Below, piece by piece: positions 1,730-60,069 of a stretch of 64,000 nt of DNA. A model generated the notes under the pieces. It saw only the letters and a list, made by a program, of their open reading frames with translations. It did not search any database and had not been told where the DNA came from. The stretch is taken from the IMG/VR virus record IMGVR_UViG_3300029419_000188; one strand, given 5' to 3'. The stretch is from a virus. The position numbers and the translations under genes were made by a program. The first letter of the stretch is position 1; each line of letters begins with the position of its first letter.

Positions 1730-2497
1730 GTGAAAGTTGGATATGCAATTTTATATAAAGATGGTACTTTAACCATTTCTAAAAAACATACTATTTTACA
1801 AAAACCAATTTATAAAGATTATGGTGAGTTTGATGATAATAAGATTCCTTGGGCATGGGGAAAAGATGATAATTGTTTTATCATTGTACAAGTATGGATA
1901 TTGAATCAAGTAAAATCTAATTGTATGAAAGAATGGTTTGCTGATTGTTACAATTTAACTACATTAATAGATTTCCAAAATTTAGATGTATCTGATTGTG
2001 AAGATTTTTCATGTTTATTTTATGATTGTCAAACCTTAAAAGATATATCATCATTAAAGGAGTGGAATGTTTCGAGTGGTAAAAGTTTTTCTAATATGTT
2101 TAGAGATTGTTACTCATTAATAGATATTTCAGCATTAGAAAATTGGAATGTATCAAATGGAAAATATTTTTCTTTCATGTTTTATCGGTGTAAATTATTA
2201 ACAAATATATCATCATTAAAAGATTGGGATGTTTCTAATGGTAGAAAATTTGATAGTATGTTTATAGCTTGCAGTTCATTGACAGACATTTCTGCTTTAG
2301 GAAATTGGCAGATGTCTAATGGTAAAGATTTTAGAACTATGTTTGGAGATTGTATTAATTTGAGAAAAATTCACTTACCAAATACTTTAAATTTTTTAAC
2401 ATTTATCATGTTTGATGGTAGTAATGAAAATTTAAAAATCCATTGGAAAAATCATGTTTATACTTATGATGATTTACTTGAATACAAAAGATTTTAA
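1730..2497 (+). CDS. DUF285 / PARCEL-repeat protein (repeated WNVSNG..F..MF..C.SL.DIS units)
   Basis: tandem ~25-aa repeats with W(D/N)VSNG and MF motifs; start reassigned to GTG 1730, 7 nt after AGGAGG (the ATG at 1694 lies within a few nt of the TATAAT box); N-terminus aligns with the pseudogene copy at 59461. Confidence 0.7.
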   Translation: MKVGYAILYKDGTLTISKKHTILQKPIYKDYGEFDDNKIPWAWGKDDNCFIIVQVWILNQVKSNCMKEWFADCYNLTTLIDFQNLDVSDCEDFSCLFYDCQTLKDISSLKEWNVSSGKSFSNMFRDCYSLIDISALENWNVSNGKYFSFMFYRCKLLTNISSLKDWDVSNGRKFDSMFIACSSLTDISALGNWQMSNGKDFRTMFGDCINLRKIHLPNTLNFLTFIMFDGSNENLKIHWKNHVYTYDDLLEYKRF

Positions 2498-2605
2498 AGA
2501 AATGCAAAAGTTAGAACATTTATTGGTATTAGTTTTTATATCTTTTAAAGTTTTCTCTATAATAAAAAAATGAAATTAAAAAAGAATAAAAAAGGAGGAG
2601 TTTTT

Positions 2606-3361
2606 GTGAAAGTTGGATATGCAATTTTATATGAAGATGGTACTTTAACCATTTCTAAAAAACATACTATTTTACAAACACCAATATATATAGATTTTGG
2701 AGAGTTTGATGATAATAAGATTCCTTGGTATCATGAAATAGAGTTTATTAAAAATGTACAAATTATTGAACCTATGAAAGTTACATGTTTGGTTTATTGG
2801 TTTTATCATTGTACAAATTTAACTACATTAATTGATTTTCAAAATCTAGATGTATCTGATTGTGAAGAATTTTCTTATTTATTTTGTGGTTGTCAATCAT
2901 TAAAGAATATTTTATCATTAAAGAATTGGAATGTTTCTAATGGAAAAGAATTTTCATTTATGTTTGCAAATTGTACATCCTTACAAGATATTTCAGCATT
3001 ATCTAATTGGAATATGTCTAATGGAGAAGAACTTTCTAATATGTTTTGTGGTTGTAATTCTCTAACAGATATTTCAGAATTACAAAATTGGGATGTATCT
3101 AATGGGAAATTCTTTTCATTTATGTTTTGTAGTTGTAAATCTTTAATTAATGTTTCAGCATTACAAAATTGGAATATGTTTAATGGAGAAACTTTTTATT
3201 ATTTGTTTTGTGATTGTTTCAATTTAAAAGAAATTCATTTACCAAATAGGTTAAATTTTTTAACATTTACCATGTTTGATGGTTGTAATGAAAATTTAAA
3301 AATTCATTGGAAAAATAAAATTTATACTTATGAGGATGTAATTGAATATAAAAAATTTTAA
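2606..3361 (+). CDS. DUF285 / PARCEL-repeat protein, tandem paralog of 1730..2497
   Basis: same promoter, leader and N-terminus as upstream copy; same repeat architecture; GTG start after AGGAGG. Confidence 0.7.
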   Translation: MKVGYAILYEDGTLTISKKHTILQTPIYIDFGEFDDNKIPWYHEIEFIKNVQIIEPMKVTCLVYWFYHCTNLTTLIDFQNLDVSDCEEFSYLFCGCQSLKNILSLKNWNVSNGKEFSFMFANCTSLQDISALSNWNMSNGEELSNMFCGCNSLTDISELQNWDVSNGKFFSFMFCSCKSLINVSALQNWNMFNGETFYYLFCDCFNLKEIHLPNRLNFLTFTMFDGCNENLKIHWKNKIYTYEDVIEYKKF

Positions 3362-3447
3362 AACATGAAAAGCTAAGACATTTTTTGTATTAGATTTTAT
3401 ATTTTATAGAGTTTTATCTATAATAAAAAAAATAAAAATTTATTATT

Positions 3448-3562
3448 TGGAAAAGAATACTCCAACTGATTCATGAACAAAACAACGTTTTGTGAATGAC
3501 AGTATTTTCATGAACAACACAATGTTTTGTGAATAATCAGTCAGAGATGAATTTTCCAACTC
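3448..3562 (+). repeat. IS200/IS605 left-end-derived repeat, copy A (contains a ~65-bp internal duplication-bearing insert)
   Basis: shares ggaaaagaatactccaactgatt ... atcagtcagagatgaattttccaactcg with the IS end at 62084-62172; near-perfect inverted copy at 6478-6562. Confidence 0.6.
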
Positions 3563-4220
3563 GTAAGAGTACAAACAGAGAAAATCTTTCTCTGTTTGTT
3601 GTAATTTTAAACAAAAGTAAATAACTTAATGATAAAAATATTGTGTAATTTTCACAAAAAAAATAGATAATGCAATAAATGATTATACATTTATCATAAA
3701 TTGTAATATAATAGAAATTGATAATTCAGAAAAAGATATTATTTTTGAAAAATTTAAGAAATATTGTTTAAAAGAAGTTAGTGAACTACCACAAACCCTC
3801 TAACGAGGGAATGTGGCTTCTATTCAATAGTTCACTAGACCATGACATTAAGAAATTGAGATGATGCAGGGATAGATAGATTATAACACCTACGGTTGTC
3901 GCCTCAGACTGTTGTTCTGTCGTATATATTTAAGTAGAGTTAGCGTAAGCAAAGCTCGGTGATATATACATGTAAGTCTCTTTATCAAGGTCGAGAGGAA
4001 GTACAAATGATATATTGTGGTATAACTTCTTTATACATATGATATATCAGTAGTCATAACAAAATATAGAAAAGTTTTCTTTCCTATATTTTGAATTATC
4101 GTATTCAGTTACTTCATTTTTTATAATTGAACAGAAATTCCATCAGATGTTTAAGAATATTTTAAATTTTTCACAACATATTCTTATACTTCTTTTTCAT
4201 TAACTGAAAGGAAAAAATAA

Positions 4221-6477: not shown

Positions 6478-6562
6478 TTCATTGTGTTGTTCATGAAAAT
6501 ACTGTTATTCACAAAACGTTGTTTTGTTCATGAATCAGTTGGAGTGCTCTTTTGCCATTTTT
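6478..6562 (-). repeat. IS200/IS605 left-end-derived repeat, copy B (inverted relative to copy A)
   Basis: reverse complement matches copy A over ~70 bp with ~1 mismatch; its outer flank tctatc(a/g)aaaatggcaaaagagcactccaactgatt matches the IS end at 62084. Confidence 0.6.
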
Positions 6563-6615
6563 GATAGAAAAGAATTAATTATAAAAAAAATTAAATTTTA
6601 AAAGGAGAGAAAAAA

Positions 6616-7236
6616 ATGAAAGAAAATAAAGAATCTGTAGTTAGTAATGAAGATTTTACAAATATTTATAATAAAAATTCAGAAGAAATCAAAAATTTAA
6701 ATATAAAAAAGTCAGAAAGAAATTTTGAAAAAACAGTAACAAATATGAATGAAATAGATTATTTGAGACGAATATATACAAATCCAATACTTAGAATGAC
6801 AGAAATAGATTGTTCTAGTATTTCAACTGAAAACTGTGAAATGTGTTGTATGTTTATTGGAGATAATATATATTCTAGTGCATATGGTCAAATAAAAGGC
6901 TGTTTTAGATATAAAGATAATCGATTATTTGTATTTAATTGGAATATTCATCAACCAAATCAACCAGCAAAATTAGTAAATAGAATGACAAATATTAAAG
7001 AATTTGTAAAAAAATATGATGCAAGATTTAATTTGGAATATTTTTCATTTGAAGATACTTTATTTGGACTTAAATCATTTTTTATCTATACACCTTATGA
7101 TTCATTAACAACAAATGATGATAAAGATTTGAGAATATTAATGAAAAGTATAAGATCATTTGTAACAAAAGAAGAATTATATAAAAAAATAAAAAAAATG
7201 GATAAGAAATATTTAGAATTAAAAGGAATGGTTTAA
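6616..7236 (+). CDS. hypothetical protein, paralog family A (Cys-rich core CSSIS..NC.MCCMFIGDNIYS)
   Basis: consensus leader and RBS; ~75% identical over the core to 7947..8453. Confidence 0.6.
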   Translation: MKENKESVVSNEDFTNIYNKNSEEIKNLNIKKSERNFEKTVTNMNEIDYLRRIYTNPILRMTEIDCSSISTENCEMCCMFIGDNIYSSAYGQIKGCFRYKDNRLFVFNWNIHQPNQPAKLVNRMTNIKEFVKKYDARFNLEYFSFEDTLFGLKSFFIYTPYDSLTTNDDKDLRILMKSIRSFVTKEELYKKIKKMDKKYLELKGMV

Positions 7237-7237
7237 T

Positions 7238-7946: not shown

Positions 7947-8453
7947 ATGGATGAAATAAATTATTTAAGAAAAATGTATACAAATAAGATAATGCAAATG
8001 ACAGAAATGGATTGTTCAAGTATATCAACTAAAAATTGTAAAATGTGTTGTATGTTTATTGGTGATAATATATATTCTAATGCATATGGACAAATAAAAG
8101 GTTGTTTTAGATATAAAGATAATAGATTATTTGTATTTAATTGGAATGTTCACAGACCAAATGAACCTGCAAAATTAGCAAACCAAATGACACTTATTCA
8201 AGAATTTTCAAGAAAATATGATTCTGAATTTAATTGTGAATATTTTGCATTTGAGGATACATTGTTTGGTCAGAAAGCATTTTTCTTGTATACACCATAT
8301 ACTTCATTAACAACAGATGAAGAGAAAGATTTAAGATTATTAATGAAAAATGTAAAAAATTTTGTAGTAAAAAAAGAATTATGTAAAAAGTTACGAAAAA
8401 TGGATAAAAAATATTTGAGATTGAAAGAGACACAAGAGACTTATGAAGATTAG
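7947..8453 (+). CDS. hypothetical protein, paralog family A
   Basis: paralog of 6616..7236; RBS AAAGGAGA. Confidence 0.6.
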   Translation: MDEINYLRKMYTNKIMQMTEMDCSSISTKNCKMCCMFIGDNIYSNAYGQIKGCFRYKDNRLFVFNWNVHRPNEPAKLANQMTLIQEFSRKYDSEFNCEYFAFEDTLFGQKAFFLYTPYTSLTTDEEKDLRLLMKNVKNFVVKKELCKKLRKMDKKYLRLKETQETYED

Positions 8454-8808: not shown

Positions 8809-9495
8809 ATGAATAAAGAAATGATAGAAGCGTTAAATCATATTCAAAAAGATATAAATAATTTGGAAAAACAAAAAGAAACAATAAAAAATATCGATTT
8901 GAATAAATCTGTAACAGAAACAGAATGGCATAATATTTGTTTAACACCACTACGGAATACAACTATTATGAAAAAGCTTTTAAAAAACATATTTCCAAAT
9001 GCAACTGACATTAAAGTTAGAGCAAATGATGTATTATTTACATTATATGGATTTGAATGTTCCATTCCAACATGGATAGGTAAATGTATTAATTTAAATA
9101 TGTCTTGGAATTATGAATTAAAAGAACCAACAATTGAGAGTTTCATGAGTCGTAGTGAATACAGTATGAGATTATACTTTGAAACACTTGATAATCATGG
9201 TCAGTGGGAATTATTATTTAACTATAGATTACCAACTTATAAAAATAGTAAAAAAATAATAAAATTTTTCATGTGGTTTGGAAAATATAAATGGAAAGAT
9301 GTTCATCGAGAAAAATGGGAAGAACAATTCAAAAATACAGAAAACAAATTAAAAACAGAATTAGAAACATATAAACAAAAGAAAAAAAATATAGAAAAAA
9401 AGAGAAAACTACTACATGAAAAATTACTACCAGAACTTTATGATTTTACAAATGAAGTTTCACATATGAATGATCAATCAGTTATAATTTCTTAA
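8809..9495 (+). CDS. hypothetical protein, paralog family B
   Basis: RBS AAAAGGAGGAG; paralog of 19220..19903 (shared NATDIK, LYGF.C..PT, WFGKYKWK.VHREKWEEQFKNTE). Confidence 0.6.
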   Translation: MNKEMIEALNHIQKDINNLEKQKETIKNIDLNKSVTETEWHNICLTPLRNTTIMKKLLKNIFPNATDIKVRANDVLFTLYGFECSIPTWIGKCINLNMSWNYELKEPTIESFMSRSEYSMRLYFETLDNHGQWELLFNYRLPTYKNSKKIIKFFMWFGKYKWKDVHREKWEEQFKNTENKLKTELETYKQKKKNIEKKRKLLHEKLLPELYDFTNEVSHMNDQSVIIS

Positions 9496-15455: not shown

Positions 15456-17256
15456 ACTCATGACTAAAGTCACGAGTGTCTTTCAAGATACATGTTTATA
15501 ACTCATTAAAAATGAGTATAGGATTAAATGCACAATCCAGATATTTTCTTACCTCATATGCCTGATGCAAATTTTTTGGATTTGTCTTACTCTGGCTCGC
15601 ATAGTTATCCCTTGATAACCATGATCGTACTATATACGATATAAGCTTAAACTACCACCATTCCCAGCGGTACTAAATTTTTTATATAATAATTGATAAA
15701 ATCTATTGTTGATATTTCATTTACATCGTTATATATATATAATTAATTTTATAAAGTTTTTTTATTATAACCTAAAATTTTATATTACAAGAATATTATT
15801 AAGAGACAAAATACTAATACCTTCATCAAATAAATTATTTTTTGCATTTGCATCTCGATCATGATGTACTCCACAAATTGGACATGTCCATTCACGATTA
15901 TTTAATTTCAAATTTACATTCTTATAACCACAATGATTACATAACTTACTAGATGCAAAAAATCTATCTACTTGAAGAAAAATGCCACCTTTCTTTTCCA
16001 TTTTATATTTTACAAATGTTAAAAATTGTCCCCAACCAACTGATGCAATTGCTTTCGCTAACTTATGATTTTTTATCATACCTTTAATATTTAAATCTTC
16101 ACAAATAAAAACATCACATTTATTTACAATTTCTTTACTTAATTTATGATGAAAATCTTTTCTTTGATTTTTAATCTTTTGATGTTCTTTTGCTAATTTG
16201 TATTTTGCTTTTTGATAATTATTAGATCCTTTCTTTTTTCTACTAAGTGATTGACTTAATCTTCTTACTCTTTTTTCATGTACTTTAATAAATTTTGGAT
16301 TTTCAACTTTTTCAGTATAATCTTTATTTCCATAAATAGCAAAATCTTTAATTCCCATATCAGATGCAATAATATTTTTTACATGCACAGTCGTAATAGG
16401 AATTGGTTTATCAACAATTGCTTCCATTTGCAATGAAATAGTATAAGTATCTTTATTTCTTTTTATTGTTGCACTTGTAATATTTGTATTCTCTGGTTGA
16501 ATATCCTGTAAGGTTTTTCTTTTTGGTAAAACAAATCTTACTTTTCCAACTTTAGGAATTTTTACATATGGTAATTTATCAATCATTAATAATTCAATGT
16601 TGTTATTTGTATATTTTGTTGTATAGGAGTTTCCACTTTCTTTATATTTATCTACAAATTTAGGAAATCCTGCTTTTTTACCATTTTTAATATTTTCAAA
16701 AAAATGATTATATGCATCATCAACATGTTCAATTGCACTTTCTAATGCAAATTTATCAGATAATTTTAAGAATCCATTTTCTTTTTTTAATTTTGGTAAA
16801 AAATTCTTTTTATAGTCAGATACAAATAGAGTTTCTTTTGAAGTTTCATAAAGATTTTTACGTTCTGATAAATAATTATTTCTTACAAATCTTGCATTAC
16901 CAATTTGTTGATTAATATTGATTGTTTGCTTTTCATTTGGTAATAAAGACAAAATAATACCATAATTAAAAAGCATTTTTCCATATGGTTCAAGAAGTGT
17001 ATTCTTATCTTTTGTAATAGTGAAACTTCTGCCATGAAAAATATATTTATTATTAATGATTTCTAATGTTAGCATATTTTTTATTCCTTTCATATCTGAT
17101 AAATATCATTCTATTACATTTATTGACAAAAGTCAATAAAAAATTCGTTTTTTAGTATTTTTTTATATTTTTAATAATTTCTTTATACATTAAAAATATC
17201 CTACAATAATAGTATTATTGTAGAAAGAAACTTTACTCATGACTAAAGTCACGAGT
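15455..17256 (-). mobile_element. TnpB-only IS200/IS605-family element (IS1341-like) bracketed by a 23-bp direct repeat containing an imperfect hairpin
   Basis: tactcatgactaaagtcacgagt at 15455-15477 and 17234-17256; tnpB inside; GC-richer 3' region 15480-15780 where a right-end guide (omega) RNA would be encoded. Confidence 0.55.
15780..17075 (-). CDS. tnpB: TnpB (IS605 OrfB family RNA-guided nuclease-like transposon protein)
   Basis: GNARFVRNNYL N-terminal motif and a C-terminal zinc finger CNHCGY...CPICG followed by HDRDANAKNN (RuvC-III-like); start moved to the ATG with RBS GAAAGGA. Confidence 0.7.
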   Translation of the reverse strand: MLTLEIINNKYIFHGRSFTITKDKNTLLEPYGKMLFNYGIILSLLPNEKQTININQQIGNARFVRNNYLSERKNLYETSKETLFVSDYKKNFLPKLKKENGFLKLSDKFALESAIEHVDDAYNHFFENIKNGKKAGFPKFVDKYKESGNSYTTKYTNNNIELLMIDKLPYVKIPKVGKVRFVLPKRKTLQDIQPENTNITSATIKRNKDTYTISLQMEAIVDKPIPITTVHVKNIIASDMGIKDFAIYGNKDYTEKVENPKFIKVHEKRVRRLSQSLSRKKKGSNNYQKAKYKLAKEHQKIKNQRKDFHHKLSKEIVNKCDVFICEDLNIKGMIKNHKLAKAIASVGWGQFLTFVKYKMEKKGGIFLQVDRFFASSKLCNHCGYKNVNLKLNNREWTCPICGVHHDRDANAKNNLFDEGISILSLNNILVI

Positions 17257-19219: not shown

Positions 19220-19903
19220 ATGAAAATAGAGATACAAGAAGTATTAGAAACTCTTCAATCAGATATTACTGAAAAAGAAAATCAAATTAATTTAATCAAA
19301 AATATTGATTGGACAAAATCTGTAACAGAAGAAGAATGGCATCAAATTTGTGAAACTTTATTACGAACTTCAGATTCATTATGTGATCTCTTAAAAAATA
19401 CTTTTCCAAATGCAACAGATATTAAACTTGGAATGAATTATGTAAATTTTAATTTATATGGATTTAAATGTTTACTTCCAACATCTATTTATGAAGAAAT
19501 ACTTGTTGATATGAGTTGGAATAAAAATCTAAAAAAACCAACACTTGAAAACACAATGAATCAATTTGAGAGAAATATGCGAGAATATTTCAAGTCAGTA
19601 GATTCTCATGAATCTTGGTTAAAATTATTTGATTTAAGATTTTTACAGTTTAAACATTATAAAAAATGGATTAAATTCATTTTATGGTTTGGGAAATATA
19701 AATGGAAAAATGTTCATCGAGAAAAATGGGAAGAACAATTCAAAAATACAGAAGAAAGAGTTACTGAAAAATTAAATTTGTATAAAAAAGAAAAAAGAGA
19801 AATTGAAGAAAAAAATAAAATACTTCATGAGAAATTGTTACCAGAATTATATCAATTTACAAAAAATGTTTATGATAAAGATTACAAAAAAGAAATTATT
19901 TAA
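19220..19903 (+). CDS. hypothetical protein, paralog family B
   Basis: promoter tctataat at 19174; paralog of 8809..9495. Confidence 0.6.
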   Translation: MKIEIQEVLETLQSDITEKENQINLIKNIDWTKSVTEEEWHQICETLLRTSDSLCDLLKNTFPNATDIKLGMNYVNFNLYGFKCLLPTSIYEEILVDMSWNKNLKKPTLENTMNQFERNMREYFKSVDSHESWLKLFDLRFLQFKHYKKWIKFILWFGKYKWKNVHREKWEEQFKNTEERVTEKLNLYKKEKREIEEKNKILHEKLLPELYQFTKNVYDKDYKKEII

Positions 19904-19919
19904 AAAAAGGAGAGAAAAT

Positions 19920-21161
19920 ATGGGAAAGTTAATTTTTTGTTATGGAGCAATGGGTGCATCTAAAAGTGCAGAATTACTTATGTGGCGGTATAACTATGAA
20001 CAATCTGGATACTCAGTATTATTGATGAAACCTAAGATTGATAATAGAGAAGAATTTTTGTCAAATAAAATGGGCGTGATTTCATCTAGAATTGGATTAA
20101 CTGCAGAATGTTTATTAATTGATAAAAAAATTGAAGAATGGGAAAATGAAATACAATGTCATGATATTATTATGGTTGATGAGTCTCAATTTTTAACAGA
20201 ATTACAAGTAGATGAATTATATCAAATTTCTATGAATAAAACTGTTATTTGTTTTGGTCTTAGGACTGATTTTACACAACACTTTTTCTCTGGTAGTAAA
20301 AGACTTATGGAATTGGCAACAGATATCAGAGAATTAAAGACAGTTTGTACTTGTGGGAAAAAAGCAACTATTAATGCTAGATTAAATGGAGATAAATTAG
20401 TAACAGAAGGTGAACAAATACAAATTGGTGCAAATGAATCATATAAAGCAATGTGTAAAGATTGTTTTGAAAAACTAAAAAAAGAAAGTGAAGAAAATCA
20501 TGAAATAACAAAAGAAGAAATTACTAAAATTATTAAAAATGACAATTTGGATTTACAAATTCTTGATGAAGGTATTGATATATCATTTAAAGAATACGCA
20601 GAAAAACATTCATTGGAAGAGTCAATAAATATATTATGGAATATATTTAAAAACGAAAAATCTGCAATAAAAAATGGATATTCAAAAGAACATTATCAAG
20701 ATTATCTATCATTATTTAAAAAAGAAATGCAAAAAGACATTAATAAAACATATAATGCATTAGAAATATCAAAATATATAATAAATAAATGTTTAGAGGA
20801 TAAAAAACCTATCTCGCATATACAACTTCAGAAAATATTATATTCTATTCAATTAGAATTTTTAGAAATCAATAAAGTTTTGTTTTCTGATAATTTTTAT
20901 GCAATTCAAATTGGCCCAGTAATTTTAAGTGTATATAATTATTTTTGTGGATCTGGAGCACAAAAAATCATGACATCTTTTAAAACAGATATTCAGTGGA
21001 ATGAATTAGATAAAATAATCATTGATCAAATTATAAAGGAAAAAAGAGAATTATTGCCATGGGAATTTAATGAAGAGATTATGTATAAAAATTCTCCATA
21101 TGATATTACATGGCAAAATGGAAAAGGAAATTGGAAAATAATTAAATTGACAAAAGGATAA
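19920..21161 (+). CDS. tdk: thymidine kinase with a C-terminal Panacea (DUF4065)-like domain
   Basis: N-terminus has P-loop GAMGASKSAEL, MVDESQFL and a C-terminal CxCG Zn site typical of type II TK; the final ~200 aa contain ISHIQLQKILYSIQLEF...FYAIQIGPVILSVYNYF, matching the Panacea-domain pattern (LQKLLY...AW.yGPV...vY); start at the ATG after AAAAAGGAGAGAAAAT. Confidence 0.6.
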   Translation: MGKLIFCYGAMGASKSAELLMWRYNYEQSGYSVLLMKPKIDNREEFLSNKMGVISSRIGLTAECLLIDKKIEEWENEIQCHDIIMVDESQFLTELQVDELYQISMNKTVICFGLRTDFTQHFFSGSKRLMELATDIRELKTVCTCGKKATINARLNGDKLVTEGEQIQIGANESYKAMCKDCFEKLKKESEENHEITKEEITKIIKNDNLDLQILDEGIDISFKEYAEKHSLEESINILWNIFKNEKSAIKNGYSKEHYQDYLSLFKKEMQKDINKTYNALEISKYIINKCLEDKKPISHIQLQKILYSIQLEFLEINKVLFSDNFYAIQIGPVILSVYNYFCGSGAQKIMTSFKTDIQWNELDKIIIDQIIKEKRELLPWEFNEEIMYKNSPYDITWQNGKGNWKIIKLTKG

Positions 21162-31449: not shown

Positions 31450-31665
31450 TTTAATATTGACAACCTCCCACGGATAAATCCGTGGGATTCCTTAGATTCG
31501 ACAATCGCACTAGCATTCCTAAGAACACTAGATATAAATTGTCTCTTTCAGGATTTCGTGCATTTCGTTCAAGGCAAAGCCTTTTACTAGATATCTTGTT
31601 TTCACAAGAACAACGCGGTTGATGTCTGAACCGTTTTTTATTTATTTATATGTTAATTAATTAAA
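31450..31665 (-). ncRNA. putative TnpB guide (omega/right-end) RNA scaffold region
   Basis: GC-rich structured non-coding DNA immediately 3' of tnpB with several hairpins, where IS605-family TnpB omega RNAs are encoded. Confidence 0.4.
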
Positions 31666-38558: not shown

Positions 38559-38568
38559 AGGTGAAATT

Positions 38569-40767: not shown

Positions 40768-41131
40768 TGTATGTTTTGAATTTGAAACCATTGAAATTTC
40801 AATGGTTTCATTTCATTAAACATTTGACTATTGTCAATAATCATGATAAAATAAAAAAATATAAAAAGATTAATTTTTATAAAAAACAATAAATATAACT
40901 TCAGCAATCATTAAAGTGAATTAAAGAATACTGAGAGAAATTGTGAAAATGACAAAAGAAGAAAAAGACAATATAAGAAAAGAATTAAATCAATATACTA
41001 AAGAAGAGTTAATTGAAAAAATAATTATTGAAAGAGAAGAAAATCAGAATCAATTACTTTTTCTTGAAATGAAAATTGATGAAATAGGAACTTTATTAAA
41101 ACTTTGAAATAATTAGAAAGGTGAAAAATTA

Positions 41132-42037
41132 ATGAATATAATTGAGATTAAAAAAGGATTAAAAAATGTCAATTATATGGCATCTAATGATATTATTTTT
41201 GCAGCAGCAGGTACAATTAATGAACAAATCCCATTATTAATAGAAGGTGCACCAGGCGCAGGGAAGACTGCATTAGCAAAAGCTGTTTCAGAAATGTTAG
41301 GATATAAATTGATAAGAGTACAATTTTATGAAGGTTTAACAGCTGATAAAATTTTATATGATTATGATTATCAAAGACAATTACTTACTATTGAATCTAT
41401 AAAAAGTGTTTTAGCAAAAGAATTAAATGATAAAAATATTGAAGAAGCAATTGATGCAACAAAAGATATTAATTTTTATGGGAAATCATTTTTAATTCAA
41501 AGACCAATTTTAGAGTCTATTATGAGTGATGAACGATGTGTATTACTTTTGGATGAAATTGATAAAGCTTCTGAAGAAATTGAATATACATTATTACAAT
41601 TTCTAGATGAATTTTCATTGTCAATCCCACAATATGGAACAATTACTGCAGATGAAAATAAAAAACCAATTGTATTTTTAACATCTAATAATTATAGAGA
41701 TTTATCTGATGCATTAAAGAGAAGATGTAATTATCTTTATATAAATAATAAAACAAAAGAAGAAATGATGGAAATTTTAAAAATGAAAGCAAATATATCT
41801 GATCAACTTGTAAATGGTGTAGCATCTTGTTTAGTTGATATTCAGAAATTAAATTTAAAACAAATGCCATCCATTGATGAAGGTATTAAATGGGCAACTT
41901 ATCTTCAAAAGAATTTTAGTGAAATTAATGAAGATAATATTGATTATACCATTTGTATGCTTGCAAAAAATAATGATGATGTAAAGGAAATTTTAAAAGC
42001 AAATGTAGTGAAAAAAAACATTGGAAAACAATTCTGA
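41132..42037 (+). CDS. MoxR-family AAA+ ATPase (CbbQ/NorQ/GvpN-like subgroup)
   Basis: Walker A GAPGAGKTALAK, ...LIRVQFYEGL...LYDYDYQRQLL resembling CbbQ/NorQ, Walker B VLLLDEIDKAS; palindrome TTGACTATTGTCAA in its promoter region at ~40822. Confidence 0.65.
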   Translation: MNIIEIKKGLKNVNYMASNDIIFAAAGTINEQIPLLIEGAPGAGKTALAKAVSEMLGYKLIRVQFYEGLTADKILYDYDYQRQLLTIESIKSVLAKELNDKNIEEAIDATKDINFYGKSFLIQRPILESIMSDERCVLLLDEIDKASEEIEYTLLQFLDEFSLSIPQYGTITADENKKPIVFLTSNNYRDLSDALKRRCNYLYINNKTKEEMMEILKMKANISDQLVNGVASCLVDIQKLNLKQMPSIDEGIKWATYLQKNFSEINEDNIDYTICMLAKNNDDVKEILKANVVKKNIGKQF

Positions 42038-43984: not shown

Positions 43985-44220
43985 AGTTGGAGAGCTTCAT
44001 TAGATACTTTATATTTAGGTGATTGGGACTTTTCTAATGGAGAAAGTTTTGATTACATTTTTTCTAATTGTAAAAATTTAAAAGATATATATTTATCAGA
44101 TACCTTTCCACAATTAACAGAAGATATGTTTTTTAATTGCAATCCAAATTTAAAAATTCATTGGAAAGATAAGATTTATACATACCAAGATTTAATTGAA
44201 TATTCAATATTTGAAAATTA
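43985..44220 (+). pseudogene. C-terminal remnant of a DUF285/PARCEL family gene
   Basis: translates to ...LGDWDFSNGESFDYIFSNCKNLKDIYLSDTF...NLKIHWKDKIYTYQDLIEYSIFEN*, matching the C-termini of 1730..2497 and 2606..3361; no start or N-terminus. Confidence 0.55.
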
Positions 44221-44233
44221 AGGGGAAATAATT

Positions 44234-50496: not shown

Positions 50497-51063
50497 ATGA
50501 AATATTTAGCAGATGATGGAAAAGTTTTTGAAAAAGAAAATGATTGTAGAGAATATGAGGAATCCTTAAAAAAGAAAAAGAATGAAGAAATTCTAGAAGA
50601 AATGAAAGAATTAGATTTAAGAATTTGGAGAACATTTCATCCAGAAGATATAAGTACTAATGAACCATCTTTAGTACTTGCTCCAATTTGGTTAAAAACA
50701 GACATTTGTTCCATTTTTATTGATTTTGAAAATAGTAAAGAAACTATTCTTGAAATGATTCATGATTCAAAATATGGAAGAGAAATTCTTGATAAATATT
50801 TAAAATGGTCAGATATTGAAAAAAATGTTGAAGTAAGAAAAGATTTTACTACTGCATTTAAAAATGTAAAATATGGAACTGATCTATCTAAGATTCTAGA
50901 TTATGCTTTTAACAAACGTGATTTAAAAAATCTTGCAAGTTTACATAAGAAAAACAAATATAGAAGAAAAATTGAAGAATTATTATCAGATTGTAATTTT
51001 CATCATGTAATTGCAGATTTTCATGATAAAAATTATGATAAATATTTGAAAGAAGAAAGATAA
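50497..51063 (+). CDS. hypothetical protein (a decayed paralog fragment lies at 60415-60525)
   Basis: consensus leader TTTTGAAAAGGAGAGAAAAACATG. Confidence 0.5.
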   Translation: MKYLADDGKVFEKENDCREYEESLKKKKNEEILEEMKELDLRIWRTFHPEDISTNEPSLVLAPIWLKTDICSIFIDFENSKETILEMIHDSKYGREILDKYLKWSDIEKNVEVRKDFTTAFKNVKYGTDLSKILDYAFNKRDLKNLASLHKKNKYRRKIEELLSDCNFHHVIADFHDKNYDKYLKEER

Positions 51064-53913: not shown

Positions 53914-53965
53914 TTCTTGTCCTTTCTAATTTTTCTCAATTGTTTTCTTTATTATAGATTTTTTT

Positions 53966-54418
53966 TTGTGTATTATTCAGTTTTTGTCTATTATTTTTAC
54001 ATATTCACTTGTGGAAAAGATAGATTTAAAAACAACAAAAAGGAAAAGTACCTATCAAAATAAGAAATTAAATAAAATCACACATACAATTCCATACGCA
54101 AGATATTTAGAAATGGTAAATTATCTTGGTTATAAATTTGAATTTTTGATTATTAAAGTTCATCTTGCCTATACTAGTCAAATTGGAAAAATAAAATATC
54201 AAGACAAAATGAAAATTCCATCTCATATTGCTGCTAGTTATGTAATTGCAAGACGTGGAATGAAATATAGTCATAATGAACATATTCCAAAAGAATATAA
54301 ACATTTCATTCAAGATATAAAAGAAAAACATTATTGGAGTAAATTTAATAAAATTTACAAGGAACTAGAAAACAAAAAAAGGCAACTAAAAAACATAAAA
54401 CTAAACAACAAACCATAA
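53966..54418 (+). pseudogene. truncated, degenerate TnpB-like C-terminal fragment
   Basis: LAYTSQ (RuvC-II ..YTSQ-like) followed directly by HIAASYVIARRG (RuvC-III D.D.NAA.NI.RRG-like, with D replaced by H); no zinc finger or N-terminal domains. Confidence 0.4.
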
Positions 54419-54780
54419 ATAATAAATAAACTTATATATAGGAAGTACTCAGTTCTTTGAAGGACTTGTTAATGAATTGCTATGTATCAACCTGTAAATC
54501 TGATAGGAAGTTGTTTTTTGTGCCGACTTGATTTTCTCTCCATGGGATTAGAAAATAGTGAAAAAAACACATTTCTATCAGAATACAAAAAGTCTACCGC
54601 GATGTAGATAGTAAGATTGTAAGACTCAAATTCTTAAACTGTACTCATGTGTGGGTATAAGTAAGAATCTTCCCACTTCAGCACAATAAACAACTGGTCA
54701 CAGTTGATTATTGTGTAAGTGGGAGTAGTTCAATCTAGGAAAATCTAAAAATCAAACTAAAGTATAAAATTAAACATATA
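54419..54780 (+). ncRNA. GC-rich structured non-coding region, candidate IS right-end/omega-RNA remnant
   Basis: long hairpin tcttcccacttcagcacaataa-[caactggtcacagttg]-ttattgtgtaagtgggag with a nested hairpin; lies immediately 3' of the TnpB-like fragment. Confidence 0.35.
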
Positions 54781-55020
54781 AAAAAATACATAACAAACAG
54801 AGATATTCAAAATGGATATCTCTATTTTATATGTTTTTTTTAACATTTAAATACAAAACTATTTATTATATGTATGCTTTTTACAATAGCAATTGGTATT
54901 ATAAATTTATTACAAGACAATGCAAATGAAATTAATTTTAGAAAATCTGCATTAACAGAATATTACATAAGGAAAAACAAGAAATAAGGAGTGAATCCAG
55001 CGTTCCTTATTTTTCACCTT

Positions 55021-55731
55021 CTAACATTCCAAAATTTGAATACTATCATATGTTTCCAAATTCAATGTACCATAACTACCATTCATTCTTCCAAATAGAA
55101 TGATATTATATTCCTTTTCTTCATTAATTCTTCCTTCAAATTTCGTGAGATAAATATTACATAAAAACCTATTGCCTTGATATACAGACAAAAAGTAATA
55201 GTTTCCAAATTTTTTTCCCTCTTTTTTTCTTAATTTTAATCTCACTTTTCTACCATAGTATAAGTAGAGAGAATCATCTGTTTTGTCCAAGAATCTTAAA
55301 GATTTTCTGCGTATAGTTTTCTTTGATGTCTGTCCCTTCTCACTTCTCTTTTCATTTTCTTCTATCAAAAATGGGTTTACAGTTTCTATGTTGTCTTCAG
55401 TCTTTATTTTCTCTTCAAACAAGCTTCTGTAAAAAACAGATAATTTCTCTTGTATGTTTCCATTTTTCTTCAATTTATCCACATACTTCATCATTGTACG
55501 ATTGCTAACTTGGTTGTAATTATTAATACAATTCTCTTCATGATGATTATCTATCAATTGTCCATTTGTGGAAAGATATCCCTCTTTTCCATGATAATAG
55601 ACCAATTTTGCTTTTTTACAAACAGGACAGAGAATATGTCCTTTCTGTATTTTTTTAAAATTTTCATCTTCTAATTCTTCAATCATATGATATTGTCCAT
55701 CCAAATTACTGTAAAATTGTTCATATTTCAT
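55021..55731 (-). CDS. hypothetical Zn-ribbon (CPVCKK) protein
   Basis: RBS AATAGGAGAGATAAAG on the minus strand. Confidence 0.5.
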   Translation of the reverse strand: MKYEQFYSNLDGQYHMIEELEDENFKKIQKGHILCPVCKKAKLVYYHGKEGYLSTNGQLIDNHHEENCINNYNQVSNRTMMKYVDKLKKNGNIQEKLSVFYRSLFEEKIKTEDNIETVNPFLIEENEKRSEKGQTSKKTIRRKSLRFLDKTDDSLYLYYGRKVRLKLRKKEGKKFGNYYFLSVYQGNRFLCNIYLTKFEGRINEEKEYNIILFGRMNGSYGTLNLETYDSIQILEC

Positions 55732-56461
55732 CTTTATCTCTCCTATTTTTTTCTTTCATTATAGATGAAATTGTTTTTTTTATTCCTATTTTTTCATTCC
55801 TCCTCGGTTTCTCTTTCCCATAGAGGTCCTTCTACACAAACATTGGGAATGGTTTCAACCATTCCCTATGTCCTCACTTCTCCCTTTCAACAAAAGCGAC
55901 TATCTGTTAGAAGTCCTTTCCCCATTTTTTCAAACATCTTTTCTCGAATCTATCCAATTCTTCTCCTTTCTTCCATTTTTCAAAAATTCTTTCCTTCTCT
56001 TTCTTATTTTCTTCTTCAATCTCTCTAATTCTTTTCCCTAGTAAATCAATAAGATTATCAGTCCATTCTGCCACTTCTTCTTCTGTAGTATCTAGTTCAA
56101 TTGGATTATCAAGATCAAGAACACTTGCAGACAAGTGGTTATGAACAATTCTTCTCGGCACTAAAGTACCGAGGATGCTTGTTCAATAATCCTTAAAGTG
56201 TATAAATACCTTCATTTCAAATAGACATTCCTATTTCATAAATTCTTTCTATTTCATGGGACTGTTTTGTTTTGCATCAACAAAGTGTACAAAAATTTCT
56301 GTCAAAATGAAAGAAAATTTGTGACAATTGTCAATAGACAAGTGAAACCACAAATGATATGATGTGTAAATACATTAAGTGAAAGGAGAAAATTTGCTGA
56401 TGAAAACAAAAAAATTGGATGATGTAAGAAAAATGAATGAAAAATTTTGGAGGGAAAATAG

Positions 56462-56815
56462 ATGGATATAGAAAAATTAATCATTATCGTTTTGTTTTAT
56501 CTTGTACTTTTTGCAGTGTTTTTCATTATTGTTCTAAGTAAAATTGGAAACCCCACTATTTATGCACTTTGTCCATTTGCAGACGGAAGATATATCCACT
56601 ACAACAAAGACAAAAATACATTAACAATGTTGCAATATATTGACAAAGAAAATACTACATATAAGTATATTTCTTATAGTCTTAATGACGATGTAATCTT
56701 TAAGATTGCAGAAACAGCAAGTATCATCAAAACAACAGCATTGGATAGTCCCATTATTTGTCTTCCAAATTTGGATGAAGAACAAGTATTCATTGCAGAA
56801 AAAGAAAATAGCTAA
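56462..56815 (+). CDS. small membrane protein
   Basis: N-terminal TM IIVLFYLVLFAVFFIIVL; palindrome GTGACAATTGTCAA ~130 bp upstream. Confidence 0.4.
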   Translation: MDIEKLIIIVLFYLVLFAVFFIIVLSKIGNPTIYALCPFADGRYIHYNKDKNTLTMLQYIDKENTTYKYISYSLNDDVIFKIAETASIIKTTALDSPIICLPNLDEEQVFIAEKENS

Positions 56816-56848
56816 AACTTAAATTTGAAAAAGAAAGGTGGTTTTGAG

Positions 56849-57049
56849 TATGGCAAAGACATATCATCACATTCAAGGGAAGGATACTTATGATCAATAG
56901 GCAGAACTGACAATTTACACTGAGCATGGCAATGTTAATATCCTTTCTAGTGAGGAAGGTAACTCAGTTGTGCTCTCCAAAAAACAAACAAAAGAACTGA
57001 TTGAGATTTTGAAAAAATGTTTGAAAGAAGATTGCAAGTTTTTCCCATG
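56849..57049 (+). pseudogene. 66-codon ORF with a good RBS, interrupted by one in-frame TAG (56897-56899)
   Basis: AAAGGTGG RBS then ATG; translation MAKTYHHIQGKDTYDQ-TAG-AELTIYTEHGNVNILSSEEGNSVVLSKKQTKELIEILKKCLKEDCKFFP-TGA, all in one frame. Confidence 0.3.
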
Positions 57050-57110
57050 AATAAAAAAATAAAAAAACTCCAATTATATATAATACAAAAAATATAAAAG
57101 GAGTTTTTTT

Positions 57111-57578
57111 ATGGATTTTATTACATTTTTAAAAACATATTTCAATCAAATTAGTACTATTTGTGATACAAGACAACAATCAAAAGTCATTTATCATATA
57201 AGTAATATTTTAATTTTAATTATCATTGCTATGATGTGTGATTATAAAAATATTTTGACAATTCAACAATTTGTTGAACAAAATAAATCAATTTTATACA
57301 AACATCATTTATTGGAAAATGAAAAACAAATACCTAGTAAAAATACATTTTATAGAATACTAGATATTGTAAATTGGAAACAATTAAAATCAATATCTAG
57401 AATTATTATGTATGAATTACCATCTGAAATTCAAAATTTATTAAAAACAAATCAAATTTCAAAAATAATGGATGGTAAGTTCATAAAAGGAAATAAAAGA
57501 AATTCTATAAGAGCTGTAAATATAGTATCTTTATTTGATACTGCATTAGGGAGAAATATACCATTCACTACATCGTAG
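57111..57578 (+). pseudogene. ISAs1-family (H-repeat-associated) transposase, N-terminal fragment
   Basis: N-terminal region resembles the DDE_Tnp_1-associated N-terminal domain; ends at ~155 aa, whereas full-length ISAs1 transposases are ~370 aa. Confidence 0.5.
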
Positions 57579-58131
57579 AAGGATGTCTACTCTACTTTGT
57601 AACTGTACCAAGAGAGAAAAAAATTCAACAATCACTTTTTCTAGATGTACTGTCTTTGGTAAAAGAAGAAAAACAGAGAAAAAAGATTGAAGAATATGTG
57701 AAAGATAAATATACACCATTGAAAACAGAAGAGAACTCCTAACAGCTAGGAGTTCTCTATTTATTCCATTTCTTTCAAAAAAAGAACCCCCATTTCTAGG
57801 AGTTCTCTTTGATTTTACATCTATGACTCTATGTCTACAGTCATAGGTATAATGAGTGGCTGTTTTAGCATCTCTACAACATATCCTAATGCGTCGCAGT
57901 ACATGCTGATTATTTCATCTTTGGAAAAGGTCAGCCCATCCATTTCTGTTGTTGCGTTTTTAAACATTTCTTCCATTTTCTTCTCCTTCTCCTGACTTTC
58001 ACAGGCACAACTGATTGGCACAATCAGTTGTGGTATTATTCCTACCTTTTTGTTTCAACTGCTGTATTATAGATATGTATACAAAATATATTCCATTTTT
58101 TTTAATTTTTTCATTTTTTTCACAATTTCTC

Positions 58132-59250
58132 CTACTTCACTTCATACAACATTTCTGTAATTTTTTCTCCAGCTTCTCGATCCATTTCTTTTAATGTATG
58201 AGCGTAGATGTTAAGAGTAGTTGTAATATTACTGTGTCCAAGTCTGTCAGATACAATCTTAGAATTCACATTCTTCTGAATTAACAAAGTTGCATGTGCA
58301 TGTCTTAAATCATGAAAACGAATTTGTTTTAATTCTTTTTTTATTAAAAATCTTCTAAAACGTTGTGAAATACAATCTTCTCCAATTGGATTTCCTTTTT
58401 TATCAAAGAAAATTAATTCATCATTTATTCTTTCACCTTTTAATCTTTTTTGAATTTGTTTCTTACGTTCTTTCTTTAACATTTCAAAAATTTCTTGTGG
58501 TCCTGATAAATCACGGATAGAACTTTCTGTCTTTGGTTCTTTTAATATTACTTCACCATTTACTCTTGCAGTAATTTGTCTAACATGTATCACTTTATTT
58601 TCAAAATCAATATCTTGCCATCGAAGACCAAGTATTTCACTAATTCTTAAACCAAATCCAACTGCTAGATGTATTGGTAATTCAATATTTTTATCTTTCA
58701 CTTTTTCAAATAATATTTTCAAATCTTCTTCTGTATAAATTTCATTCTTAAATTTATTATTCTTTGGTATCATAATCCTATCAACAATTTTATCATCAAT
58801 TATTTGAAGTTTATATGCATAAGTAAGTGCAATACTTAATATATTTAAATGAATTTTTACTGTTTGTGGCTTTAATTCTAATATTTTTAAATCTACATAT
58901 TTTTGTAAATGAATGGGCTGCAACTCAGATAGCTTCAATTTACCAAGTATTGGATAAATATGTTTGATTAATATTTTTATATATTGTTCATATGTTGTAA
59001 TACTTATATTTCGTTTATATGAATTCATAAATTCATTCATATAATTTTCTAATGTTTGTTCATTTGGTAATTGCAATTTATTTATATCTTTTAAATATGA
59101 TAATTCTCGTTTTCGTTTTTCTGCATCTTTCTTATTCGTATAAGTTCCCATATTCTTCTGACTTCTTTTCTTAAACTCATCTTCAGATGTAAGATATACA
59201 TAATATTTACTGTTTCGTTCTCGTATAAATATACTCACTATTCTTTCCAT
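58132..59250 (-). CDS. tyrosine recombinase / phage-type integrase
   Basis: C-terminal catalytic region HDLRHAHATLLIQ...GHSNITTTLNIYAH (R..H..R..Y signature); N-terminal SAM-like core-binding region; RBS GAAAGGAGTATATT. Confidence 0.8.
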   Translation of the reverse strand: MERIVSIFIRERNSKYYVYLTSEDEFKKRSQKNMGTYTNKKDAEKRKRELSYLKDINKLQLPNEQTLENYMNEFMNSYKRNISITTYEQYIKILIKHIYPILGKLKLSELQPIHLQKYVDLKILELKPQTVKIHLNILSIALTYAYKLQIIDDKIVDRIMIPKNNKFKNEIYTEEDLKILFEKVKDKNIELPIHLAVGFGLRISEILGLRWQDIDFENKVIHVRQITARVNGEVILKEPKTESSIRDLSGPQEIFEMLKKERKKQIQKRLKGERINDELIFFDKKGNPIGEDCISQRFRRFLIKKELKQIRFHDLRHAHATLLIQKNVNSKIVSDRLGHSNITTTLNIYAHTLKEMDREAGEKITEMLYEVK

Positions 59251-59460
59251 AATATACTCCTTTCTATAAACAATTCTTTAAATTGTATATACTTATAATA
59301 CAATTATATCATATACTCTGAAAATTAACATCTCTAGCCATAAGTACTAGTTAGTGCATGAATATATAATAAATGACATAAAAAACTACTATAATGAGAT
59401 ATAAAATTTATATCAAAACATATAATTAAAGAAAAAAAGGAGCTATTAAAGAAAAAAATT

Positions 59461-60069
59461 ATGATTGTTGGATATGCAGTACTTTATAAAGATGGAACTC
59501 TTGTAATTTCAAAAAAACATAGTATTTTATCAAAAAAAGTGAGAAAAGATTATGGTCAATTTGAAGATACAAATGTGTCATGGAAAAATGAAATAAAAAA
59601 AATAGAAAAGGTTCATATTTTAGATTAAATAAAATCAAATTATCTAAAAAAATGGTTTGAAGATTGTATCAATTTAACTACATTGATTGATTTTCAAAAT
59701 TTAGATACTTCTGATTGTACCAATTTTTCAAGAATGTTTACTTATTGTAAATCCTTACAAAATATAAATGAATTACAAAATTGGAATGTTTCCAATGGTA
59801 CTAATTTTTCATGTATGTTTTCATTTTGTGAATCATTACAAAACATACAATCTCTTAAATTATTTAATGTGTCCAATGGTATGAATTTTATAAGTATGTT
59901 TGAGGGCTGTAAAAACATTATAACACTTGAATATCTAAAAGATTGGGATGTATCAAACGGAACATTGTTTGGAGAAATGTTTAAAGATTGTATAAATTTA
60001 ATAGATATATCTGCTGTAGATCAGTGGAATATTTCTAAAGGAAAAGATATTGAAGATATGTTTGATTGA
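59461..60069 (+). pseudogene. DUF285/PARCEL family gene with an in-frame TAA (59626-59628)
   Basis: MIVGYAVLYKDGTLVISKKH...VHILD-TAA-IKSNYLKKWFEDCINLTTLIDFQNLDTSDC... aligns with the 1730..2497 protein; the stop falls where the paralog has Gln/Asn. Confidence 0.6.

What the first reader, a model, noticed from the sequence alone, without database searches (positions are those of the whole stretch)
1730..60069. DUF285/PARCEL repeat protein family with active turnover: two intact tandem copies and three decayed copies
The W(D/N)VSNG...MF repeat proteins match the DUF285/PARCEL family, best known from Mollicutes and reported as horizontally spread. Here there are two intact tandem paralogs (1730..2497, 2606..3361), a C-terminal remnant (43985-44220) and a nonsense-interrupted copy (59461-60069). 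The family is expanding and decaying in this genome and is a candidate host-range or surface-interaction determinant in a non-Mollicute (TGG=Trp) background.
Basis: partly seen in the sequence, partly recalled or inferred. Interest (0 to 1): 0.5.

Follow-up and report, generated by a model that had tools for sequence, protein, structure and literature searches.

The report
Signal-less DUF285 repeat gene family turnover
A very AT-rich, unclassified mobile-looking DNA segment from metagenomes carries a small family of leucine-rich-repeat-like (DUF285/PARCEL) proteins that gain, lose and reshuffle repeats and whole genes between strains. This is a real but fairly ordinary example of a known kind of variable gene family, and nothing in the sequence shows that the proteins sit on the cell surface.

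Summary
A (1730-2497) and B (2606-3361) are intact tandem paralogs. D (59461-60069) has one in-frame TAA. C (43985-44221) is a 3' remnant. A, B and D pass Pfam DUF285. Only two decayed loci exist, not three; the nearest thing to a third is a promoter stub at 3381-3436.

Turnover is directly visible:
- A near-identical strain carries D intact, with 11 repeats instead of 5.
- Related contigs carry arrays of 5-9 paralogs with 3-11 repeats, mosaic genes and pseudogenes.
- The ends of A and B are homogenised (dS about 0.1) while their repeats are not (dS about 0.65).
- Scaffold positions are under purifying selection (dN/dS 0.10-0.18); variable positions run at about 1-1.9.

The genetic code is standard, and the nearest named relatives of the MgsA gene are Peptostreptococcaceae. 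Untargeted PARCEL genes in tandem on mobile islands were already described in 2010. The surface or host-range role is unsupported. I read these as translated, probably intracellular, variable binding modules. Verdict: a new member of a known kind, modest interest.

The parts
1644..1699 (+). Upstream/promoter-5'UTR motif of tandem unit 1. The unit period is 876 nt.
   Evidence: Three direct copies at 1644, 2520 and 3381 (D3; alignment). 1643-1852 is 93% identical to 2519-2728.
1730..2497 (+). Copy A, intact, 255 aa: N-cap (aa 1-84), five 27-aa repeats (nt 1982-2386), C-cap (aa 220-255). GTG start after GGAGGA.
   Evidence: PF03382 at 77 bits. Repeat parsing. AF2 pLDDT 95.9, pTM 0.91. Orthologs of 97% and 84% identity in metagenomes.
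2520..2575 (+). Upstream motif of tandem unit 2.
   Evidence: TTTATA-17-TATAAT at 2535-2563; this is a consensus match only.
2606..3361 (+). Copy B, intact, 251 aa, 66% identical to A. Five 27-aa repeats (nt 2846-3250).
   Evidence: PF03382 at 66 bits and LRR_5 at 28.2 bits.. The exact protein is found on 4 contigs.
3381..3436 (+). Solitary third copy of the upstream motif: the stub of a third tandem unit, with no gene behind it.
   Evidence: 91% identical to 1644-1699. Similarity ends where the RBS and start would be. The related contig L002 has further family genes downstream of the A ortholog: g3-g5, plus a fragment at the contig end.
43985..44221 (+). Copy C: a promoterless 3' remnant holding the last repeat and the C-cap. 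It begins 11 nt after the stop of an unrelated 193-aa ORF.
   Evidence: 50% identical to the A and B C-termini. Family HMM E 3e-26, positions 158-223. Translation. Gene calls show the same layout on every longer contig that carries the identical neighbouring gene.
59461..60069 (+). Copy D: pseudogene in this strain. It has TAA at 59626-59628 where the L006 strain has Gln. It has four full repeats plus a truncated fifth (nt 59701-60066), no C-cap, and a TGA stop.
   Evidence: L006 (97.8% nt identity) has an uninterrupted 364-aa ORF with 11 repeats and the same C-end. The TAA is present in all 100%-identical contigs that reach it.
60096..60132 (+). Terminator-like hairpin 27 nt after the stop of D.
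   Evidence: 18-nt arms, 94% complementary, 1-nt loop, followed by a T-rich tail (I25).
58132..59250 (-). Tyrosine integrase, divergent neighbour of D. Listed as context, not shown to act on the family.
   Evidence: PF00589 and PF14659. No convincing inverted repeats link it to the family copies.

Best explanation
A, B, C and D belong to one subfamily of small, untargeted LRR-type solenoid proteins. Each has a conserved N-cap (MKVGYAxLYxDGxLxISK...), 3-11 copies of a 27-residue DUF285/PARCEL-type repeat (W-N-V-S-N-G-x-D-F-S-x-M-F-x-x-C-x-S-L-x-x-I-x-x-L-x-N) and a conserved C-cap (...KIHWKNxIYTYEDLLEY).

Shown:
- The genes sit in same-strand tandem arrays on an uncultured, 22-25% GC, mobile-looking element.
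- The family evolves in four ways: in-register recombination between 81-bp units, which changes repeat number; duplication and deletion of an 876-bp gene-plus-promoter unit; exchange between paralogs, which homogenises the 5' and 3' ends and makes mosaic genes; and decay by nonsense mutation and truncation.
- Fold-determining positions are under purifying selection, while exposed repeat positions (above all 11, 14, 15 and 17) change freely.

Inferred: the proteins are translated. They act as a diversified set of binding modules, each presenting a different surface on one scaffold. Because no member has an export signal, they most likely work inside the cell that carries the element, binding variable host or competitor proteins in the manner of host-takeover, anti-defence or immunity factors, rather than as classical surface adhesins. 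The binding partner is unknown.
For: Family identity and fold:
- PF03382 hits.
- AF2 pLDDT 95.9 with the N-terminus folded as strands.

No targeting signal:
- 113 of 120 homologs start M-x-VGY. None has a lipobox. Hydropathy of the first 40 residues is low.

Repeat anatomy:
- Exact 27-aa period.
- Homolog lengths cluster at about 198, 225, 252 and 278 aa, with one at 305.
- Per-position entropy is below 0.6 bits at W1, G6, F9, M12, F13, C16 and L19, and above 3 bits at positions 11, 14, 15 and 17.

Turnover:
- D versus L006: 5 versus 11 repeats, and TAA versus CAA.
- L033 versus L034: 223 versus 277 aa at one locus.
- Arrays of 7 genes (L001), at least 6 (L002) and 9 (L035), including pseudogene fragments.
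- L002_g4 is a mosaic of A-like ends and a B-like middle.
- A versus B: dS 0.09 and 0.13 at the ends, against 0.64-0.68 in the repeats. The nucleotide identity profile runs 92-100%, then 58-75%, then 85-93%.

Selection:
- Scaffold dN/dS 0.10-0.18, variable positions 0.98-1.86, in five pairs.

Mobile context:
- Integrase, IS200/605 TnpA and TnpB.
- VirB4/TraG-like protein and primase next to the array in L002.
Against: - No expression data exist.
- Absence of a Sec or lipoprotein signal does not exclude release by lysis, incorporation into a particle, or type IV/VII secretion.
- dN/dS of about 1 at positions chosen after the fact as variable is what neutral drift of exposed residues would also give, and recombination between paralogs distorts pairwise estimates.
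- No PADLOC hit for A, and no toxin, defence or anti-defence gene is consistently adjacent in the few contexts read.
- The element itself is unclassified. No plasmid or phage hallmark was recognised among the window ORFs I scanned or in the precomputed gene annotations of the rest of the 73-kb contig. The biological setting is therefore uncertain.
Confidence: 0.5

Rival explanations
1. This is the first reader's view: surface or host-range determinants. The proteins would reach the outside by a non-classical route, such as being a component or decoration of a virus-like or conjugative particle, a type IV or type VII secretion substrate, or release on lysis. Their variable face would bind receptors and so set host or niche range.
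For: - Most characterised DUF285/BspA-type proteins are exported. [quoted passage not shown]
- The distant relative in a Clostridioides MAG is a 908-aa protein with an N-terminal hydrophobic segment.
- Phage and giant-virus proteins share the fold.
- Two DUF285 proteins are packaged in AaV virions (PMC7507832).
- Structural proteins of particles need no signal peptide.
- Conjugation-type genes neighbour the array in L002.
Against: - No signal peptide, lipobox, transmembrane segment or anchor in 120 homologs.
- No capsid, portal, terminase or tail gene was recognised among the window ORFs scanned or in the precomputed annotations of the contigs read.
- The contig is not in IMG/VR.
- No attachment domain lies beside the solenoid.
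Confidence: 0.25
2. Silent reservoir or decaying selfish repeats. The copies would not be functional proteins in their own right. They would be stores of variant repeat cassettes for recombination into some expressed gene, or neutral remnants of a repeat that propagates itself. This is the idea offered for 'untargeted' PARCEL ORFs in PMC2996958.
For: - Mosaic genes and homogenised ends show frequent exchange between paralogs.
- Pseudogenes and fragments are common: C and D here, plus fragments in L001 and L002.
- The 2010 paper proposes exactly this for tandem untargeted ORFs on the Tra islands.
Against: - Scaffold positions show dN/dS 0.10-0.18.
- Well over a hundred homologs keep full-length open frames with both caps.
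- Each window copy has a strong GGAGGA ribosome-binding site and its own upstream motif.
- No signal-bearing 'expression site' member appears among the 120 closest homologs.
- A crude test found no dyad-symmetry excess that might drive self-propagation.
Confidence: 0.1

Closest known systems
[quoted passage not shown] 2010, PMC2996958)
   Same: - DUF285-type repeats in variable number.
- No membrane-targeting signal.
- Same-orientation tandem paralogs.
- A shared family-specific motif outside the repeat tract.
- Residence on a large mobile element.
- High diversity between repeats.
- Duplication and decay.
   Different: - Here the repeat is 27 rather than 25 residues, with Cys16 and Leu19 where the canonical motif has Ala and Phe.
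- Standard genetic code in a Firmicute-like background.
- Defined N- and C-caps and a confident LRR model.
- No targeted family members were seen alongside.
- No dyad-symmetry excess in my test.
BspA-type LRR (LRR_5) proteins with solved structures: BACOVA_04585 (4fs7), T. pallidum TpLRR (6mlx), FAEPRAA2165_01021 (4gt6), EUBVEN_01088 (4h09)
   Same: - Detectable by sequence profile.
- The same 'DGTLxI' type of N-cap is visible in the LRR_5 protein of L010.
   Different: - 18-20% identity.
- Those are annotated cell-surface proteins with shorter repeats, as the L010 example shows.
- The window proteins lack any export signal and are much smaller.
DUF285 gene expansions in viruses: 38 DUF285 proteins in Aureococcus anophagefferens virus; BspA/DUF285 genes in Aeromonas, Vibrio and Klebsiella jumbo phages and in Listeria phages
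   Same: - A multi-copy family on a mobile or viral genome, with duplication discussed as a 'genomic accordion' (PMC10720644).
- Small members of about 220-250 aa exist, for example in AaV and in gut Myoviridae sp. ctIty1.
- tblastn identity of about 30%.
   Different: - No viral hallmark gene was recognised here.
- No near DNA match to any phage record.
- The repeat subtype and the caps are specific to this metagenomic subfamily.
Mycoplasma PARCEL surface lipoproteins (LppQ, LppC, Mbov_0838 family)
   Same: Shared repeat family. D's fragment matches TIGR02167 at 38 bits (cutoff 30) and gives a weak partial match to NF045896.
   Different: - Those carry a lipoprotein signal and are shown to be surface-expressed; none is present here.
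- NF045896 scores 22.5 bits against a cutoff of 500.

Membership tests
Pfam DUF285 (PF03382) | Whole-protein score at or above the gathering score (25 bits) | tested here: met
   A 77.0, B 66.3, D fragment 70.6 bits. Remnant C has no PF03382 hit, but it matches the subfamily HMM at E 3e-26.
PARCEL (Roske et al. 2010) | Canonical 25-residue motif in tandem | tested here: not met
   The period is exactly 27 residues in A, B, D and the homologs. Relative to W-D-x-S-x-V-x-x-M-x-x-M-F-x-x-A-x-x-F-N-x-D-I-S-x, there are two extra residues before the next Trp. This is a length variant.
PARCEL (Roske et al. 2010) | Variable number of repeats; conserved periodic hydrophobic residues with variable hydrophilic positions between them | tested here: met
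   3-11 repeats across homologs. Entropy profile.
PARCEL (Roske et al. 2010) | Dyad symmetry of the repeat-coding DNA | tested here: inconclusive
   I counted reverse-complement 8-mers (1 mismatch allowed) against codon shuffles: z = -1.3 for A, -0.1 for B, +1.4 for D, within the range of control genes. The method differs from the MEME palindrome search of the paper.
PARCEL (Roske et al. 2010) | Recognition by TIGR02167 (26-residue surface-protein repeat) | tested here: inconclusive
   D fragment 38.1 bits (cutoff 30); A 22 bits; B no hit.
PARCEL (Roske et al. 2010) | Association with mobile elements; duplication and decay | tested here: met
   Integrase and IS200/605 in the window. VirB4/TraG-like protein and primase beside the array in L002. 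Pseudogenes.
BspA-family LRR surface protein (LRR_5, PF13306; PGAP name) | LRR_5 score at or above the gathering score (27.7 bits) | tested here: inconclusive
   B 28.2 bits (just above); A 21.4 and C 24.7 bits (below).
BspA-family LRR surface protein (LRR_5, PF13306; PGAP name) | LRR solenoid fold | tested here: met
   [not shown]
BspA-family LRR surface protein (LRR_5, PF13306; PGAP name) | Export signal and/or surface anchor, as the name 'surface protein' implies | tested here: not met
   No hydrophobic N-terminus and no lipobox in 120 homologs. Residues 2-17 are modelled as strands of the cap. No dedicated signal-peptide predictor was available.
Mycoplasma PARCEL lipoproteins (Mbov_0838 family, NF045896) | Score at or above the curated cutoff (500 bits) and a lipoprotein signal | tested here: not met
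   22.5 bits, partial match. No lipobox.

The most novel reading that the evidence does not exclude
The arrays would be the diversified binder repertoire of a so-far unclassified class of large, 22-25% GC, almost entirely dark-matter elements. These could be giant phage-like, plasmid-like, or neither. The signal-less LRR modules would act inside the host cell as a rapidly evolving set of inhibitors or decoys against variable host proteins such as defence systems or toxins. That would be a bacterial mobile-element analogue of LRR-based recognition repertoires.
Probability: 0.12. Interest if true: 0.65.

Novelty: new member of a known kind. Interest (0 to 1): 0.3.

Why it matters
The DUF285/PARCEL family is huge: about 160,000 cluster representatives match the profile at E<=1e-3. 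No molecular function has been established for the repeat module itself.

This subfamily is a clean minimal version, consisting of caps and repeats only, with a confident model. Natural strain-to-strain series of repeat number and mosaic exchange are available for it. That makes it a convenient system for asking what such modules bind and how fast they diversify.

For annotation, it is a warning that the automatic name 'surface protein' should not be carried over to signal-less members on mobile elements.

Tried and rejected
1. A third decayed copy. tblastn and a family-HMM scan of all six frames found none. Only a promoter stub exists.
2. Mollicute code 4. Rejected: TGG encodes Trp 142 times, TGA ends 9 ORFs, and most of those extend only 5-66 codons under code 4.
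3. Identity of the element.
   - No megablast match of window 1-25000 to phages or plasmids.
   - Two further window proteins have no tblastn match in phages.
   - A 45-nt exact probe from gene A is absent from IMG/VR.
   - PHROGs hits are weak or absent for nine further window proteins; A itself matches three PHROGs families of unknown function.
   - GTDB species representatives hold only distant relatives, 25-33% identical. The one I read (L014) is a large protein with an N-terminal hydrophobic segment.
4. Circularity. The window starts 350 nt before the start of the 73,037-bp JGI contig. A 42-nt probe from window 110-151 is absent from the JGI metagenome contigs, so no simple 73-kb circle is shown.
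5. An integrase-driven shufflon or inversion switch for D. All family copies are on the + strand, and only AT-rich chance-level inverted repeats were found.
6. A defence-system component. No PADLOC hit for A.
7. Dyad symmetry of the repeat DNA. No excess.
8. Cysteine content as a marker of cytoplasmic location. Dropped, because the signal-bearing Clostridioides relative also has Cys in the corresponding motifs of its repeats.


Full report
**What is in the sequence**

The window is 21-28% GC throughout. It has no tRNA and no Rfam match.

Two adjacent + strand ORFs lie at 1694/1730-2497 (A) and 2570/2606-3361 (B). A split ORF lies at 59461-59628 plus 59683-60069 (D), and a short open stretch at 43985-44221 (C).

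- Pfam gives DUF285 (PF03382) for A at 77 bits, B at 66 bits and the large D fragment at 71 bits, against a gathering score of 25. LRR_5 is a weaker second hit.
- C reaches no Pfam threshold. It is 50% identical to the last 70-78 residues of A and B.
- A and B are 66% identical. D is about 54% identical to A in one continuous frame.
- A subfamily HMM searched against all six frames finds these loci and nothing else below E 0.29. The title's 'three decayed copies' is therefore two decayed loci, or three ORF fragments.
- The real starts are the GTG codons at 1730 and 2606, each 6 nt after GGAGGA. The L002 ortholog starts there with ATG.

**Anatomy**

Each protein has three parts:

- an N-cap of about 80 residues (MKVGYAILYKDGTLTISKKH...);
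- repeats of exactly 27 residues, five in A, B and D;
- a 36-residue C-cap (...NLKIHWKNxIYTYEDLLEY).

Across 352 repeats from 120 homologs the consensus is W-N-V-S-N-G-x-D-F-S-x-M-F-x-x-C-x-S-L-x-x-I-x-x-L-x-N. W1, G6, F9, M12, F13, C16 and L19 are nearly invariant. Positions 11, 14, 15 and 17 exceed 3 bits of entropy.

None of the 120 homologs has a hydrophobic N-terminus or a lipobox, and 113 start M-x-VGY.

**Where it comes from**

The window is 100% identical to parts of a 73,037-bp JGI contig and a 71,840-bp ENA contig. The same genes recur in several metagenome assemblies.

It has no near match among 50,697 phage or 72,556 plasmid records for window 1-25000. A 45-nt probe from gene A is absent from IMG/VR.

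Recognisable genes in the window:

- thymidine kinase fused to a Panacea domain;
- guanylate kinase;
- flotillin;
- MgsA/RarA;
- a MoxR-type AAA ATPase and a VWA protein;
- a tyrosine integrase;
- IS200/605 TnpA and TnpB.

None of the window ORFs I scanned, and none of the precomputed gene annotations for the rest of the 73-kb contig, shows a plasmid replication or phage structural gene.

The nearest named relatives of the MgsA protein are Peptostreptococcaceae, at 43-45% identity. A related element (MgsA 69% identical) carries gyrB and a 5'-3' exonuclease.

The genetic code is standard. I can say 'low-GC Firmicute-associated, mobile-looking, unclassified', and no more.

**Evidence for turnover**

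1. The tandem unit is 876 nt. Its upstream motif occurs three times, and the third copy (3381-3436) has no gene behind it. In the related contig L002 the array continues beyond the A ortholog with further genes.
2. The identity of A to B runs 92-100% over the promoter and first codons, 58-75% over the repeats, and 85-93% at the 3' end. Synonymous divergence is 0.09 and 0.13 at the ends against 0.64-0.68 in the repeats. This indicates exchange between paralogs. L002_g4 is a clear mosaic of A-like ends and a B-like middle.
3. In L006 (97.8% nt identity) the D ortholog is an uninterrupted 364-aa ORF. It has CAA where the window has TAA, and 11 repeats instead of 5, a difference of 486 nt or 6 x 81. 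It has the same cap-less C-end, which is followed in the window by a terminator-like hairpin. The nonsense codon is present in every 100%-identical contig that reaches it, so it is not a read error.
4. L033 and L034 differ by two repeats at one locus.
5. Related contigs carry 7, at least 6, and 9 tandem paralogs with 3-11 repeats, plus fragments.
6. Gene calls show the same layout around C on every longer contig that holds the identical neighbouring gene.

**Selection**

Nei-Gojobori estimates in five pairs give dN/dS of 0.10-0.18 at the 14 scaffold positions per repeat and 0.98-1.86 at the 13 variable positions. The whole-gene value for A against its 84% ortholog is 0.48.

The scaffold result argues that the proteins are translated and folded. 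The variable-position result cannot separate neutral drift from diversifying selection, for two reasons: the classes were chosen after seeing the alignment, and paralog exchange violates the model.

**Comparison with what is known**

The PARCEL paper (PMC2996958) defines a 25-residue repeat recognised by DUF285 and TIGR02167. It describes variable repeat number, dyad symmetry of the DNA, frequent membrane targeting, association with mobile elements, and duplication and decay. It also explicitly describes tandem, same-orientation, 'untargeted' copies with a shared extra motif on the Tra islands of M. capricolum.

That is the closest precedent. It means the central features here are already known in kind.

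The differences here are:

- a 27-residue repeat;
- defined caps;
- the standard genetic code;
- no targeted members seen in the subfamily;
- no dyad-symmetry excess in my crude test.

DUF285 expansions are also known in a giant virus and in jumbo phages. The superfamily is very large: 159,772 cluster representatives match at E<=1e-3, and the best scorers are giant proteins of 1,000-7,400 aa.

**Mechanism**

Shown:

- an LRR-type scaffold with hypervariable positions;
- repeat-number change;
- gene gain and loss;
- paralog exchange;
- pseudogenisation.

Inferred: these are translated binding modules. Lacking any export signal, they most likely act inside the carrying cell on variable protein partners. 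My confidence in this is 0.5.

Two rivals remain open. The first is an exported or particle-borne adhesin or host-range factor (0.25). The second is a silent cassette reservoir (0.1). No test available here separates them.

**Verdict**

The turnover claim is right and is now documented by strain comparisons. The surface or host-range reading is unsupported.

This is a new member of a known kind, of modest interest. It is somewhat more interesting if the dark-matter element and an intracellular binder role were confirmed.

Noticed in passing
window 3451-3524 and 6480-6553: A 74-nt inverted repeat, 96% complementary, flanks a 2.96-kb segment immediately downstream of the A/B array. The segment holds a 129-aa ORF with weak RmrA-like matches, a DUF6465 ORF and guanylate kinase. 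The left arm contains two tandem copies of a 28-nt unit (3470-3497 and 3507-3534). Region 3436-3612, which includes the left arm, folds as a long hairpin (MFE -53.8 kcal/mol, z -7.3), followed by a terminator-like hairpin at 3571-3599. There is no Rfam family. It could be a MITE pair, an invertible segment or IS ends.
   Followed up: partly
window 8809-9495 and 19220-19903; locus L008: Two paralogous ORFs of 228 and 227 aa lie 10 kb apart. The 99.6%-identical contig L008 lacks everything between them, which looks like a strain-level deletion by recombination between the paralogs. The deleted stretch includes flotillin and a TnpB.
   Followed up: partly
window 62075-64000; also 15780-17093(-) and 31661-33235(-): An IS200/605 unit (TnpA of 139 aa plus TnpB of 468 aa) at the window end recurs at 96.6-98% identity in quite different gene contexts in four contigs (L020-L022, L024), and at 99.5% in L023. 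It therefore appears recently mobile. Two further TnpB-like ORFs lie in the window.
   Followed up: partly
window 19803-21161: Thymidine kinase is fused to a C-terminal SocA/Panacea antitoxin-like domain (452 aa). A stand-alone Panacea gene sits next to an Endonuclease_NS_2 gene in related contigs L033 and L034.
   Followed up: no
window 36927-42037; loci L036 and L037: The module of VWA_CoxE protein, a 740-aa unknown protein and a MoxR-type AAA ATPase, with MgsA/RarA next to it, is conserved in a related element. That element also carries gyrB and a 5'-3' exonuclease. The parent replicon may therefore be much larger than 73 kb.
   Followed up: no
window 60390-60524 versus 50497-51063: A 44-aa ORF just downstream of D repeats the N-terminus of the 188-aa ORF at 50497 (YLADDxKxFxKENDCREYEESLKK). 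This is a second decayed paralog fragment, of an unrelated family, in the same neighbourhood (read directly from the translations).
   Followed up: no
window 6616-7236 and 7947-8453: Another paralog pair of unknown function (206 and 168 aa, highly similar over about 160 residues) is separated by a YunG-like ORF. The segment is rich in small duplicated families.
   Followed up: no
window 54001-58000: GC rises to 27.6-28.3% (background about 23%) with negative GC skew, next to the integrase at 58132-59250 and a DDE_Tnp_1_assoc ORF at 57111-57578. This may be an inserted segment bordering copy D.
   Followed up: no
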